Assembly (NCBI GenBank): GCA_039630545.1
Contig: JBCNUU010000001.1
Span: 160,001 to 224,000 of the forward strand
DNA length: 64,000 nt
From: Endomicrobiia bacterium
Lineage (GTDB): Bacteria; Elusimicrobiota; Endomicrobiia; DTEH01
Direction of reading: 5' to 3'
The first letter of the stretch is position 1. Every line of letters starts with the position of its first letter. Below are positions 56,442 through 59,380 of this stretch, one piece after another. A model generated the notes under the pieces. It did no database searches and was not told the DNA's origin. It worked only from the letters and a program-made list of their open reading frames with translations. A program made the position numbers and the translations under genes.

Positions 56442-56942
56442 ATGAAATGTCCTTTTTGTGATGAAAACGATACCTATGTTGTGGATACCAGAACTCTGAA
56501 AGGAGCTTCTGTAATTCGTAGAAGAAGAATTTGCAAAAAATGCCAAAAAAAGTTTACTACATATGAACGTGTAGAAGAACCTTTAGTAAATGTTATTAAG
56601 TCTGACGGGAGAAGAGAACCTTTTGATGCAAACAAGATAAAAGAAGGAATATTAAAAGCAGTAGAAAAACGTCCTGTGACAGTTGAGGAGGTAGAAAAAA
56701 TTGTTGCTGAAGTTCAACAAGAAATCTCAAAAAAGTTTGTTTTAGAAGTTCCAAGTTCTCTTATTGGGAAAATTGTTTTAGAAAAGCTTTTTCCTGTTGA
56801 TCCTGTAGCATATGTGAGGTTTGCATCTGTTTATTACCAGTACGATAGTATAGATAAATTTCTTAAAGAGCTTAAAGAACTTAAAAAGAGATATTTATTA
56901 AAAGATAAAAAAAAGAAAGGTAATAAAAATGCAAAATCATGA
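56442..56942 (+). CDS. nrdR: Transcriptional repressor NrdR
   Basis: MKCPFC, IRRRRIC..C..KFTTYE, ATP-cone, VAYVRFASVY. Confidence 0.97.
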   Translation: MKCPFCDENDTYVVDTRTLKGASVIRRRRICKKCQKKFTTYERVEEPLVNVIKSDGRREPFDANKIKEGILKAVEKRPVTVEEVEKIVAEVQQEISKKFVLEVPSSLIGKIVLEKLFPVDPVAYVRFASVYYQYDSIDKFLKELKELKKRYLLKDKKKKGNKNAKS

Positions 56943-58053
56943 AGTTATAGAAACATTATATGATGAAATAAAATCTTCAGGATATAACTTAGAAGAGGTT
57001 GTTTCTGGTGATGTTGTGCCTCCTGATACGGTGAGAGAAAAAATTAACAAATTAGTCTCTCTGGATCCTAATTTTTATTCTAATCTACTATCAAAACTTT
57101 TATCTGAGGAATTTGATGAGGAAGTAGCTAAAAAATTATGGTTTGAGATTCTTGAGCATAAATACCGCATTTCGGAAAAATTAGGAAGAAATGTGGGAAT
57201 TAGAGTTGCTACATTGGATTATCTTGAAAATATAAAGAAGATTATCAAAGCTCCTAAAATTATAGAAGAAGAAGAATTTATAAAAACTTTAAAATTAGCT
57301 ACAAGAGACCCCCTTACAGGGCTGTACAACAGAAGATATTTATTTGACTATGTTAGACAGTTGATAAGAAAAAAACAAAGATTTTCCTTAGCTTTTTTAG
57401 ATCTGGATGGATTTAAAAGATATAATGATAAAGAAGGACATCAAGCAGGTGATGTGATTCTTCAAGAATTTGCTGCAGTTTTAAAATTAAGTTTTAACGA
57501 TGAAAACAAATATATAGTTGGAAGATATGGTGGTGATGAATTTATTTTATGTATGCTTGATGTAGATAAAAGAACAGCTCAGGATATCCTGGATAAATTT
57601 AGACAGGAAATTCAAAGACAGTTTGCTGAAATAAAAATAACAGTAAGTATAGGTGTATGTGAATACAATCCGGATCTTGAAAAATCAGATGTTAAAGATT
57701 TTGATGAACTTATTGAAAAAGCTGATGAACTTTTGTATAGAGTAAAAGAATTTGGTGGGAACAAGGTGTTTAGATTAAGAACAATATTTTTTTATTATAC
57801 TCCGGAGGGAAATTCTGCTCCTAAAGAGGTGGCGGTGGTGGGTGATTTTAATAACTGGGATAGAAAAAAAGGGCAGATGCAGTTCATATCACAACAAAAC
57901 TTGTGGTGCAAAAAAATGTTACTTAAACCGGGAGTTTATAAGTATAAGTTTCTAATAGATACAAACATATGGTTAGCAGACAAAAATGCTAAATTTTTTG
58001 CTGATGATGGATTTGGTGGTAAATGTTCTGTCATCACAGTAGCTGAGAAATAA
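56929..58053 (+). CDS. Diguanylate cyclase (GGDEF) with C-terminal CBM48/AMPK-beta-like glycogen-binding domain
   Basis: DPLTGLYNRRY, DLDGFKRYND..GHQAGD, GRYGGDEF; C-terminus EVAVVGDFNNWD...W...LKPGVYKYKFLID..W.AD.NA...DDGFGG.CSV. Confidence 0.88.
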   Translation: MQNHEVIETLYDEIKSSGYNLEEVVSGDVVPPDTVREKINKLVSLDPNFYSNLLSKLLSEEFDEEVAKKLWFEILEHKYRISEKLGRNVGIRVATLDYLENIKKIIKAPKIIEEEEFIKTLKLATRDPLTGLYNRRYLFDYVRQLIRKKQRFSLAFLDLDGFKRYNDKEGHQAGDVILQEFAAVLKLSFNDENKYIVGRYGGDEFILCMLDVDKRTAQDILDKFRQEIQRQFAEIKITVSIGVCEYNPDLEKSDVKDFDELIEKADELLYRVKEFGGNKVFRLRTIFFYYTPEGNSAPKEVAVVGDFNNWDRKKGQMQFISQQNLWCKKMLLKPGVYKYKFLIDTNIWLADKNAKFFADDGFGGKCSVITVAEK

Positions 58054-58095
58054 AAATTTCATTAATATTAAATATTAAAAGGGAGGTATAAATTT

Positions 58096-58278
58096 ATGTC
58101 AGAAATTCTTGTGGTAGTAAGTAAAATAAAAAAGATGGTAAAAGAGCAAGGTTTAAGAACAGGTGAAGGTTTTATAGAAGCTCTATCTAAAAAAGTTGAA
58201 GAAATGGTGAAAAATGCTGCCCAGAAAGTGAAATCTGAAGGTAAAAAGAAAACCCTCGGAGCTGAAGATTTAATGTAA
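58096..58278 (+). CDS. Bacterial histone-fold protein (Bd0055/HBb-like singlet)
   Basis: 60 aa, basic. LVVVSKIKKMVK...FIEALSKKVEEMVKNAAQKVKSEGKKKTLGAEDL fits alpha1-L1-alpha2-L2 with a K-T-h-x-x-x-D end motif. Strong RBS GGGAGG at 58081-58086. Confidence 0.82.
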   Translation: MSEILVVVSKIKKMVKEQGLRTGEGFIEALSKKVEEMVKNAAQKVKSEGKKKTLGAEDLM

Positions 58279-58285
58279 GTTTTGT

Positions 58286-58324
58286 TAAAGATTGTAAAGA
58301 TTGTAAAGATGTAAAGTTGTAAAA
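58286..58324. repeat. Short tandem repeat, (TAAAGATTG)-like x4
   Basis: TAAAGATTG TAAAGATTG TAAAGATG TAAAGTTG TAAAA. Confidence 0.75.
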
Positions 58325-58335
58325 ACTATTTATAA

Positions 58336-58929
58336 ATGACAAACAAAATAATTATTGGTATTACAGGACCAAACGCTTCAGGAAAAAGTGAAGTAATAAA
58401 ATATCTTGTAAAAAAAAAATTCTACAGTGCTTCTTTATCAGATATTTTAAGAAAAAAAGCAAAGGAGTATAACTTAGGATCTGACAGAGAGACACTTATT
58501 AAGTTAGGTAATGATTTACGCAAGAAATATGGTTGTGGGATTTTAGCAAAATGGCTCATAAAAGATCTCGATAAGGTTTTTAAAAATAAAATAGTCATAG
58601 ATAGTATAAGAAATGTTTCTGAAATAAAAGAATTTAAAAAGAAATTTAAAGATAATTTCTATCTTATTTATATTACAGCACCCAAGAAAAGAAGATTTAA
58701 ATTTATGCAGTTGCGCAAGCGACAAGGAGATCCTGTTAGTTATAAGGAATTTTTAGAAATAGAAAAAAAAGAAAATTCTAATAAATCTTACCAGCAACAG
58801 ATAAATAAATGTAAGGAATATAGAGATTTTTTTATTAATAATAACTCTACATTAAAAGAGCTTTATAAAAAAGTTGATATAATTATAAAAAAAATAGATG
58901 AGAAAAATTTTGCGACCAAGTTGGGATGA
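58336..58929 (+). CDS. P-loop nucleoside/nucleotide kinase-like protein (dephospho-CoA/NMP kinase-like)
   Basis: IIGITGPNASGKS, SLSDILR, GNDLR, IDSIRN..E, R.R.GD, INNNSTL. Confidence 0.8.
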   Translation: MTNKIIIGITGPNASGKSEVIKYLVKKKFYSASLSDILRKKAKEYNLGSDRETLIKLGNDLRKKYGCGILAKWLIKDLDKVFKNKIVIDSIRNVSEIKEFKKKFKDNFYLIYITAPKKRRFKFMQLRKRQGDPVSYKEFLEIEKKENSNKSYQQQINKCKEYRDFFINNNSTLKELYKKVDIIIKKIDEKNFATKLG

Positions 58930-59380
58930 ATATTTTTTGAAATTAGCCTTCCTTGTAGCTGAAAGATCCACCTGCTTGAGGCATCATGTAGGTGCTGTTA
59001 TTGTTAGGGATAGGAGAATTTTAACTACAGGTTATAATGGTGCGCCTGTTGGATGTCAAGATTGTTTGCAACTTGGTTGTTTAAGAGATGAGTTAGGTGT
59101 TCCTTCAGGAGAAAGACATGAAATTTGTCGTGCTGTTCATGCTGAGCAAAATGCTATTGTTCAAGCAGGAGTTCATGGGATAGACATTACTAATGCAACA
59201 ATGTATTGTACCCATTCACCCTGTGTAATCTGTGCCAAAATGATAGTTAATGCTAAAATAAAACGGTTTGTAACAGCACAAGATTATTCAGATAATAGTT
59301 TTAGAAAATTATTTGACGAGGCAAAAATAGAATTTGTTAAGTTACCTATTCCATTGTTGGAAATTTCTTTGCTGCTTTAA
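58898..59380 (+). CDS. dCMP deaminase (ComEB family)
   Basis: RPSWDEYF, RSTC.R..VGAVIV, TGYNG, HAEQNA, HSPCVICAK. Confidence 0.93.
   Translation: MRKILRPSWDEYFLKLAFLVAERSTCLRHHVGAVIVRDRRILTTGYNGAPVGCQDCLQLGCLRDELGVPSGERHEICRAVHAEQNAIVQAGVHGIDITNATMYCTHSPCVICAKMIVNAKIKRFVTAQDYSDNSFRKLFDEAKIEFVKLPIPLLEISLLL

What the first reader, a model, noticed from the sequence alone, without database searches (positions are those of the whole stretch)
58096..58278. Bacterial histone gene
MSEILVVVSKIKKMVKEQGLRTGEGFIEALSKKVEEMVKNAAQKVKSEGKKKTLGAEDLM closely follows the pattern I recall for the Bdellovibrio histone Bd0055/HBb (M.E.LVV.SK.KK..K...LSK..E......K..G.KT....D). It is a minimal histone fold with a truncated alpha3. 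The strong RBS suggests high expression as a nucleoid protein. Bacterial histones are rare and only recently characterised. Here Lys replaces the usual Arg of the RKT motif.
Basis: partly seen in the sequence, partly recalled or inferred. Interest (0 to 1): 0.75.

Follow-up and report, generated by a model that had tools for sequence, protein, structure and literature searches.

The report
HBb-type bacterial histone of Elusimicrobiota
This is a real 60-residue gene for a small basic histone-fold protein of the kind first characterised in Bdellovibrio (HBb), but histones of this kind are already published for this phylum, so the call is right and not new.

Summary
The ORF at 58096-58278 (+) is real and translates exactly as quoted. 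A GGGAGG Shine-Dalgarno lies 9 nt upstream. Purifying selection is strong: 31 synonymous against 1 non-synonymous difference to the closest ortholog, dN/dS 0.045-0.137 where measurable.

It matches the solved Bdellovibrio histone HBb/Bd0055 over its full length: single sequence E 3.5e-8, family profile E 7e-22. The AlphaFold2 model (pLDDT 91) has a short alpha1, a 25-residue alpha2 and a 4-residue alpha3. It superposes on HBb at TM 0.89, Z 8.6. A homodimer test passed, 0.68 against 0.00 for the best control, possibly from likeness to solved HBb dimers.

The named relatives are Endomicrobia/Elusimicrobiota "hypothetical proteins". The gene was found in 86 of 301 sampled genomes of the phylum, 85 of which also carry HU.

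Lys does replace the clamp Arg. This is a clade trait: KKT in 111 of 120 close homologs.

Hocher 2023, Schwab 2024 and Hu 2024 already list Elusimicrobiota among the phyla with "bacterial dimer" histones. DNA binding and abundance remain inferred.

The parts
58096..58278 (+). 60-codon CDS (stop included) for an HBb-type alpha3-truncated singlet histone. Predicted alpha1 8-16, L1 17-23, alpha2 24-48, L2 49-55 (KKKT), alpha3 56-59.
58080..58086 (+). Shine-Dalgarno AGGGAGG, 9 nt upstream of the ATG
   Evidence: A strong SD is conserved in 9 of 9 orthologs. GGAGG occurs upstream of only 5 of 51 long ORFs in the window.

Best explanation
The gene encodes a singlet, alpha3-truncated histone of the 'bacterial dimer' (HBb/Bd0055) class in an Elusimicrobiota (Endomicrobiia-like) genome. 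Two chains form the classical histone-fold handshake dimer: antiparallel alpha2 helices, with L1 of one chain paired to L2 of the other. By analogy with HBb, the dimer binds the DNA backbone without sequence specificity. The contacts would come from the L1/L2 pair (R21-T22 with K52-T53) and from the N-terminal turn of alpha1 (S9-K10, K12, K16). It would bend or compact DNA as a nucleoid-associated protein working beside HU. Shown here: a real conserved gene, HBb-family sequence, histone fold, single copy, coexistence with two HU/IHF genes. Predicted: the homodimer. Inferred from HBb: DNA binding, bending, abundance.
For: (1) Sequence. phmmer against PDB gives HBb at E 3.5e-8 over the full length. 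A 54-sequence family profile gives HBb 7.4e-22, HTkC (9f2c) 2.6e-18, HLp (9qt0) 7.3e-17, HmvA 1.5e-6, HMfA 1.1e-4 and HMfB 1e-3.
(2) Fold. The AF2 model has pLDDT 91 with helices 8-16, 24-48 and 56-59. Foldseek gives TM 0.89, rmsd 1.0-1.4 A to HBb, and every listed row is a histone-fold protein. VIA gives Z 8.6/8.5 for HBb, 8.1/8.0 for HLp, 7.7 for HTkC, then at most 6.1 for canonical histones.
(3) Dimer. ipSAE was 0.67/0.69/0.68 against a best control of 0.00. There were 115-119 contacts, partner pLDDT 84-85, and at least 98% contact agreement between runs. The mark was reached by 20 of 30 solved homo-pairs and 1 of 23 single chains. Contacts run L1(20-23) to L2(53-55) and alpha2 to alpha2 (30/34/37/38).
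(4) Contact residues. Of the ten HBb DNA-contact residues named in Hu 2024 (passages), S9, K10, K12, K16, K52 and T53 are identical here and invariant in the 40-sequence clade alignment. N22 becomes an invariant R21.
(5) Selection. dN/dS is 0.045-0.137.
(6) Distribution. The gene is in 86 of 301 phylum genomes and all 7 other sampled genomes of the window's genus. Of those 86 genomes, 85 also have HU. The window's own genome has 2 HU/IHF genes and one histone.
(7) Literature, passages read. Bacterial dimer histones are 'predominantly found in Bdellovibrionota, Elusimicrobiota...' (PMC11390915). HBb is an essential, non-specific, DNA-bending dimer (PMC11317129).
Against: No experiment on any Elusimicrobiota member was found in the literature searched. 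The protein on its own does not reach Pfam's threshold for PF00808 (E 0.031, 15.0 bits against 21.4), its best Pfam row is an unrelated sub-threshold DUF1198, and NCBIfam gives nothing. No Foldseek match reached E<=1e-3; the best was 1.6e-3, as expected for 60 residues. HBb's R57, its second-ranked DNA contact, is Glu here, and Glu precedes the clamp Asp in 120 of 120 close homologs. T8 is Val and S24 is Gly. The clamp Arg is Lys. The dimer pass may reflect the model's memory of solved HBb dimers. Net charge is only +4.
Confidence: 0.78

Rival explanations
1. Same family, different DNA mode. Dimers bind DNA edge-on and polymerise into a dense nucleohistone filament that coats straight DNA, as Hocher et al. 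proposed for Bd0055, rather than bending it.
For: Hocher 2023 (passages) reports edge-on binding and filament formation in vitro for Bd0055. It argues that lack of a tetramerisation domain is general to bacterial singlets. The protein here shares the fold and the L2 KT motif.
Against: Hu 2024 (passages) reports a second DNA interface, MD and in-solution data supporting bending by single dimers. Residues that would mediate dimer-dimer contacts in a filament were not examined here. E57 in place of R57 changes the surface charge.
Confidence: 0.12
2. It behaves like face-to-face (FtF) alpha3 histones such as HLp and HTkC: a stable tetramer that wraps about 60 bp of DNA.
For: The model superposes on HLp and HTkC almost as well as on HBb (Z 8.1 and 7.7 against 8.6). 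The profile E-values are 7e-17 and 3e-18. K44 sits where HLp has the tetramer residue R49 (alignment numbering).
Against: Sequence is clearly closest to HBb: E 3.5e-8 against 1.6e-3 and 2.7e-3. HLp's conserved N53 aligns with E48, a variable position. Schwab 2024 defines bacterial dimers by lack of these residues.
Confidence: 0.05
3. It is a histone-fold protein that does not organise the nucleoid. It could be a specific regulator or a protein-protein adaptor, as suspected for DUF1931-type bacterial histone folds.
For: Schwab 2024 cautions that not all prokaryotic histone-fold proteins need be genome organisers. Net charge is modest at +4. There are no expression data. Family-level synteny with dNTP-metabolism genes (NrdR, P-loop/deaminase pair, NDK) could hint at a local role.
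Against: The DNA-contact motifs S9-K10, K12, K16 and K52-T53 are invariant. Neighbours change completely between classes of the phylum, which argues against a fixed partner or target operon. A strong SD is conserved.
Confidence: 0.05

Closest known systems
HBb / Bd0055 of Bdellovibrio bacteriovorus (PDB 8FVX, 8FW7, 8CMP, 9EZZ, 9F0E); 'bacterial dimer' class of alpha3-truncated histones (Schwab 2024)
   Same: About 60-aa singlet with 38-39% identity over the full length. Same helix layout with a 4-residue alpha3. Shares the S9-K10 motif, K12, K16, K52-T53 and D58. Predicted handshake homodimer.
   Different: L1 is one residue shorter and carries an invariant Arg (R21 for N22). L2 is one residue longer (KKKT). 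The clamp Arg51 is Lys in 111 of 120 close homologs. HBb's DNA-contact R57 is Glu in 120 of 120. T8 is Val. There are no experimental data for this clade.
HLp (Leptospira perolatii, 9QT0-2) and HTkC (Thermococcus kodakarensis, 9F2C): face-to-face alpha3 histones
   Same: Same truncated histone fold (Z 8.1 and 7.7; 25-34% identity), the KT motif in L2 and alpha1 lysines.
   Different: Those proteins form stable tetramers through R49/N53/R55 (HLp numbering). Here the equivalents are K44/E48/K51. The sequence match is much weaker (E about 2e-3).
Archaeal nucleosomal histones HMfA/HMfB (1B67, 1A7W, 5T5K); Pfam PF00808
   Same: Histone fold with an L2 [R/K]-K-T...D motif. Profile-level homology at E 1e-4 to 1e-3; Z 5.7-5.9.
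   Different: Those have a longer alpha2, a full alpha3 and a tetramerisation interface, and they wrap DNA into hypernucleosomes. This protein is below Pfam's cutoff for PF00808.

Membership tests
Bacterial dimer (HBb-type) alpha3-truncated histones | Significant full-length sequence similarity to HBb. Schwab 2024 defines the category by sequence clustering. | tested here: met
   E 3.5e-8 for the single sequence over residues 1-58. The family profile gives E 7.4e-22.
Bacterial dimer (HBb-type) alpha3-truncated histones | Singlet histone fold of about 65 aa or less, with a shortened alpha2 and an alpha3 of only 3-4 residues | tested here: met
   60 aa. AF2 helices at 8-16, 24-48 and 56-59, pLDDT 91. 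TM 0.89 and Z 8.6 to HBb. This rests on a prediction, not a solved structure.
Bacterial dimer (HBb-type) alpha3-truncated histones | L2 RKT motif with the R...D clamp (R51-D58 in HBb) | tested here: inconclusive
   K52, T53 and D58 are invariant, but the clamp position is Lys (K51). The triplet is KKT in 111 and RKT in 9 of 120 close homologs. In the wider family, 66 of 100 representatives carry the motif, with 55 RKT and 6 KKT. Whether Lys forms the salt bridge was not measurable with these tools.
Bacterial dimer (HBb-type) alpha3-truncated histones | Bacteria-specific S9-K10 motif and alpha1 lysines | tested here: met
   S9, K10, K12, K13 and K16 are invariant in 40 of 40 clade sequences. 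The motifs are described.
Bacterial dimer (HBb-type) alpha3-truncated histones | Forms homodimers and no larger oligomers | tested here: inconclusive
   The dimer is supported by prediction: 0.68 against a best control of 0.00, possibly from memory of solved HBb dimers. Tetramers or higher oligomers were not tested.
Bacterial dimer (HBb-type) alpha3-truncated histones | Non-specific DNA binding and high cellular abundance | not testable with these tools
   No RNA run was listed. The only indirect support is a conserved strong SD.
Face-to-face (FtF) alpha3 histones (HLp/HTkC) | Conserved tetramerisation residues (HLp R49, N53, R55) | tested here: not met
   The aligned residues are K44, E48 (a variable position) and K51 (alignment, numbering).
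Pfam PF00808 CBFD_NFYB_HMF | Score at or above the gathering cutoff of 21.4 bits | tested here: not met
   15.0 bits, E 0.031, covering only residues 27-59. Of 54 family members, 14 hit PF00808 at E<=0.01, best 5.1e-6. This shows limited model sensitivity, not absence of homology.
Nucleosomal archaeal histones (HMf type) | Full-length alpha3 (about 10 residues) with a four-helix-bundle tetramer interface | tested here: not met
   alpha3 is 4 residues and the protein ends at residue 60.

The most novel reading that the evidence does not exclude
The Elusimicrobiota proteins form a distinct subtype of bacterial histone. They have a Lys-based clamp in a one-residue-longer KKKT L2 loop, an invariant Arg in a shortened L1, and Glu where HBb uses Arg57 to contact DNA. 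Their DNA-binding geometry or oligomerisation would therefore differ from HBb. The gene has also been lost wholesale from the two most heavily sampled families of the phylum (0 of 89 and 0 of 88 genomes) while persisting almost everywhere else. That would make the phylum a natural experiment on when a bacterium can dispense with a histone.
Probability: 0.2. Interest if true: 0.45.

Novelty: already known. Interest (0 to 1): 0.22.

Why it matters
Bacterial histones were characterised only in 2023-2025, and only HBb (Bdellovibrio) and HLp (Leptospira) have structures and biochemistry. This window adds a clean, well-conserved Elusimicrobiota example. It shows that the databases still call such genes "hypothetical protein", or mislabel them "N-methylhydantoinase B". 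Pfam and NCBIfam miss it entirely.

That has annotation value but is not a discovery. The phylum is named in the published catalogues, and a cladogram of its histones is a supplementary figure of Hocher et al. Modest new points are the clade signature (KKKT, R21, E57), the family-level losses, and coexistence with HU in 85 of 86 histone-bearing genomes.

Tried and rejected
(1) Histone methyltransferase idea. In 23 of 48 genomes outside the window's family, the gene immediately downstream on the same strand is a SAM methyltransferase. It is UbiE/COQ5-type in 12 and Methyltransf_28 in 11. I considered a histone-modifying enzyme. I rejected it as the best reading because the next gene is NuoA (9 loci) or NuoB (2 loci) in 11 of the 15 methyltransferase loci that had longer flanks. 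One further locus has an unassigned 228-aa gene followed by NuoA. The methyltransferase therefore heads a complex I cluster. By recall, Methyltransf_28/NDUFAF7 is a complex I assembly factor and UbiE a quinone methyltransferase. None of the 14 loci from the window's own class has it, nor does the window.

(2) Expression. No RNA holder was listed for window:56400-59900.

(3) Promoter and terminator scan. No terminator-like site was found. Two promoter-like sites were found, fewer than the shuffles gave (2 against a mean of 4.6), so the scan is uninformative.

(4) The 9-bp tandem repeat just after the stop (58286-58323) is not conserved in the 8 orthologous loci. I dropped it as part of the feature.

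(5) A second histone copy in this genome. The only other matches were E 0.1-0.25 inside long unrelated ORFs. The PF00808 scan gave nothing above the cutoff.

(6) Spurious-ORF reading: rejected by the dN/dS result.

(7) Notes of this scan near the place: nothing to show.

(8) A tetramer prediction and measurement of the K51-D58 distance in the model could not be done.

Full report
OBSERVATION. The window holds an ATG-to-TAA ORF at 58096-58278 on the + strand. AGGGAGG lies at 58080-58086, 9 nt before the ATG. The window is 28.5% G+C. Only 5 of its 51 non-overlapping ORFs of at least 120 aa have GGAGG in the stretch -20 to -4, with the start taken as the first start codon of each ORF. The site is therefore stronger than usual locally. 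A strong SD is kept in all 9 genus/family orthologs examined.

The gene is under strong purifying selection. In 8 pairwise comparisons with orthologs, pS is 0.60-0.85 and pN is 0.007-0.148. Against the closest ortholog there are 31 synonymous and 1 non-synonymous differences. dN/dS is 0.045-0.137 in the 5 pairs where dS is not saturated. This is a real protein-coding gene.

WHAT IT IS. Pfam and NCBIfam do not name it. PF00808 scores 15.0 bits (E 0.031) against a cutoff of 21.4. The top Pfam row is an unrelated sub-threshold DUF1198. NCBIfam returns nothing.

A direct search of PDB sequences is clear. The two depositions of the Bdellovibrio histone match residues 1-58 at E 3.5e-8 (8fvx) and 4e-8 (8cmp). 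They are followed by 9f2c at 1.6e-3 and 9qt0 at 2.7e-3. Later calls identify 9f2c as the archaeal HTkC and 9qt0 as the Leptospira HLp.

A profile built from 54 singlet relatives (A2) raises these matches to 7.4e-22, 2.6e-18 and 7.3e-17. It also reaches canonical archaeal histones: HmvA 1.5e-6, M. kandleri 1f1e 3.5e-6, HMfA 1.1e-4 and HMfB 1e-3.

The AlphaFold2 model built on that alignment is confident, with mean pLDDT 91 and pTM 0.68. It shows alpha1 at 8-16, alpha2 at 24-48 and a one-turn alpha3 at 56-59. Foldseek ranks HBb chains first at TM 0.89, rmsd 1.0-1.4 A and 38-39% identity, then HLp and HTkC at about 0.80, then only histone-fold proteins. Its E-values are weak for so short a chain: the best is 1.6e-3 and none reaches 1e-3. 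VIA-align gives Z 8.6/8.5/8.5 for HBb, 8.1/8.0 for HLp and 7.7 for HTkC, then drops to at most 6.1 for TAFs, HMf and the core histones.

The homodimer test passed. ipSAE was 0.67, 0.69 and 0.68 against 0.00 for the best of 3 controls. There were 115-119 contacts, partner pLDDT was 84-85, and runs agreed in at least 98% of contacts. In the tool's calibration, 20 of 30 solved homo-pairs and 1 of 23 single chains reached the mark. The interface is the histone handshake: L1 residues 20-23 against L2 residues 53-55 of the other chain, with alpha2 crossing alpha2 at residues 30/34/37/38. HBb dimers are solved, so this pass shows likeness and does not show binding.

RESIDUE-LEVEL COMPARISON. Hu et al. 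2024 (PMC11317129; passages read) name three sets of HBb residues:
- the RD clamp R51-D58, augmented by D49;
- the dimer core L31, I35, L38, V11 and I59;
- ten DNA-contact residues, ranked N22, R57, S9, T53, T8, S24, K10, K12, K52, K16.

I mapped these using the alignments. S9, K10, K12, K16, K52 and T53 are identical here, and they are invariant in a 40-sequence clade alignment. N22 corresponds to an invariant R21, in an L1 loop that is one residue shorter. T8 is Val and S24 is Gly. R57 is Glu.

L2 is one residue longer (G-K-K-K-T), and the clamp Arg position holds Lys. This is a property of the clade and not of this one gene. Among the 120 closest homologs the triplet is KKT in 111 and RKT in 9, and Glu precedes the clamp Asp in 120 of 120. 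Among 100 representatives of the wider family, 66 carry the motif, of which 55 are RKT and 6 are KKT.

The FtF tetramer residues of HLp are R49, N53 and R55 (PMC12701072; passages). They align with K44, E48 (a variable position) and K51. The FtF signature is therefore not met.

ORGANISM AND DISTRIBUTION. The 272 homologs at E<=1e-3 that carry names are all "hypothetical protein" from Endomicrobia/Elusimicrobiota MAGs. A few carry JGI's mislabel "N-methylhydantoinase B".

The window's own assembly is 1.60 Mb in 82 contigs and 95.5% complete. It has one copy of the gene, no other PF00808-like gene above the cutoff, and two HU/IHF genes.

Across 301 sampled genomes of the phylum, the window's own included, the histone was found in 86. 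That is 74 of the 234 high-quality genomes and 55 of 98 genera. It is present in all 7 other sampled genomes of the window's genus. It was not found in the two most heavily sampled families (0 of 89 and 0 of 88) and was found in only 2 of 22 genomes of a third. It is present in most of the small families.

HU is found in 289 of the 301 genomes. Of the 86 histone-bearing genomes, 85 also have HU; the exception is 79% complete. The histone is therefore an addition to HU and not a replacement for it.

CONTEXT. Within the genus and family, the gene order is NrdR, a GGDEF/CBM48 diguanylate cyclase, the histone, a P-loop protein, a dCMP-deaminase-like protein, and NDK on the opposite strand. Eight orthologous loci in other genomes of the family carry parts of it, as far as each locus reaches. 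None of these neighbours is kept in 11 more distant loci.

In other classes of the phylum the histone usually sits directly upstream of a methyltransferase-NuoA-NuoB cluster. This holds in 23 of 34 genomes of other classes and in none of the 14 genomes of the window's class. I read this as inherited gene order next to complex I genes and not as a histone-modifying enzyme. The changing neighbourhoods fit a stand-alone housekeeping gene.

MECHANISM. The most likely picture (0.78) is an HBb-like homodimer that binds the DNA backbone non-specifically. The contacts would come from the paired L1/L2 loops and the first turn of alpha1. The dimer would bend or compact DNA as an abundant nucleoid protein alongside HU. 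The gene, the family, the fold and the genomic facts are shown here. The dimer is predicted. DNA binding, bending and abundance are inferred from HBb.

The rivals are:
- the edge-on filament mode that Hocher et al. proposed for Bd0055 (0.12);
- an FtF-like wrapping tetramer (0.05);
- a role outside the nucleoid (0.05).

NOVELTY. I searched the literature for 'bacterial histone'/'Bd0055' and for 'Elusimicrobia' plus 'histone'. I read passages, not whole texts.
- Schwab 2024 (PMC11390915) lists Elusimicrobiota among the phyla where bacterial dimer histones predominate.
- Hu 2024 says the DNA-contact residues are conserved in Elusimicrobiota homologs.
- Hocher 2023 notes "phylogenetic persistence" in Elusimicrobia and has a supplementary cladogram of the phylum, a figure I could not see.

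The kind, and its presence in this phylum, are therefore already known.

The increments here are the clade signature, the family-level absences, the coexistence with HU, and the failure of Pfam and NCBIfam to detect the gene. I found no paper describing experiments on an Elusimicrobiota histone in those two searches. Supplementary tables of the catalogues were not opened and may list near-identical proteins.

Noticed in passing
window 58336-58929 (+) and 58898-59380 (+): The two genes just downstream of the histone overlap by 32 nt. They are a 197-aa P-loop protein and a 160-aa dCMP-deaminase-like protein. They match consecutive parts of the anti-phage dCTP deaminase models. Against NCBIfam NF041025 they cover positions 2-216 and 332-401 of 437 (69 and 86 bits, cutoff 400). 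Against PADLOC dCTPase PDLC02373 they cover 152-340 and 434-501 of 630 (E 2e-27 and 2e-32). This looks like a split two-gene form of the P-loop plus deaminase architecture, and both genes are present in 7 of 8 orthologous loci from other genomes of the family. It could equally be housekeeping dCMP deaminase (ComEB, 121 bits against cutoff 219) with a nucleotide kinase..
   Followed up: partly
L047-L062, L010, L012, L020, L022-L026 (histone loci of other Elusimicrobiota classes): In 23 of 34 genomes of other classes the histone gene lies directly upstream, on the same strand, of a SAM methyltransferase (UbiE-type or Methyltransf_28/NDUFAF7-like). NuoA or NuoB follows the methyltransferase in 11 of the 15 such loci that had longer flanks. 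This gives a conserved histone-MTase-complex I gene order that spans ten families..
   Followed up: partly
window 58286-58323: A 9-bp tandem repeat (unit TAAAGATTG, 4.4 copies, 90% matches) lies between the histone stop and the next gene. It is not conserved in orthologous loci, although L013 has a different short repeat at the same place.
   Followed up: partly
window 56929-58053 (+): The upstream gene is a diguanylate cyclase (GGDEF, E 2e-34) fused to a C-terminal AMPK1_CBM/CBM48 glycogen-binding-type module (E 5e-10). This is an unusual sensor/localisation pairing. Its start overlaps the end of NrdR by 14 nt..
   Followed up: no
proteins P0123, P0129-P0132 and others: The wider family includes tandem doublets (about 118-160 aa with two matched stretches) and a 279-aa protein with the histone domain at its C-terminus (224-279). 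Ten phylum genomes carry a second, very divergent copy (E 1e-7 to 1e-4). The window's genome does not.
   Followed up: no
one search hit table: Several JGI entries name these 60-aa histones 'N-methylhydantoinase B/oxoprolinase/acetone carboxylase alpha subunit'. This annotation error probably comes from a weak Hydantoinase_B hit (E 0.13 for the window protein).
   Followed up: no
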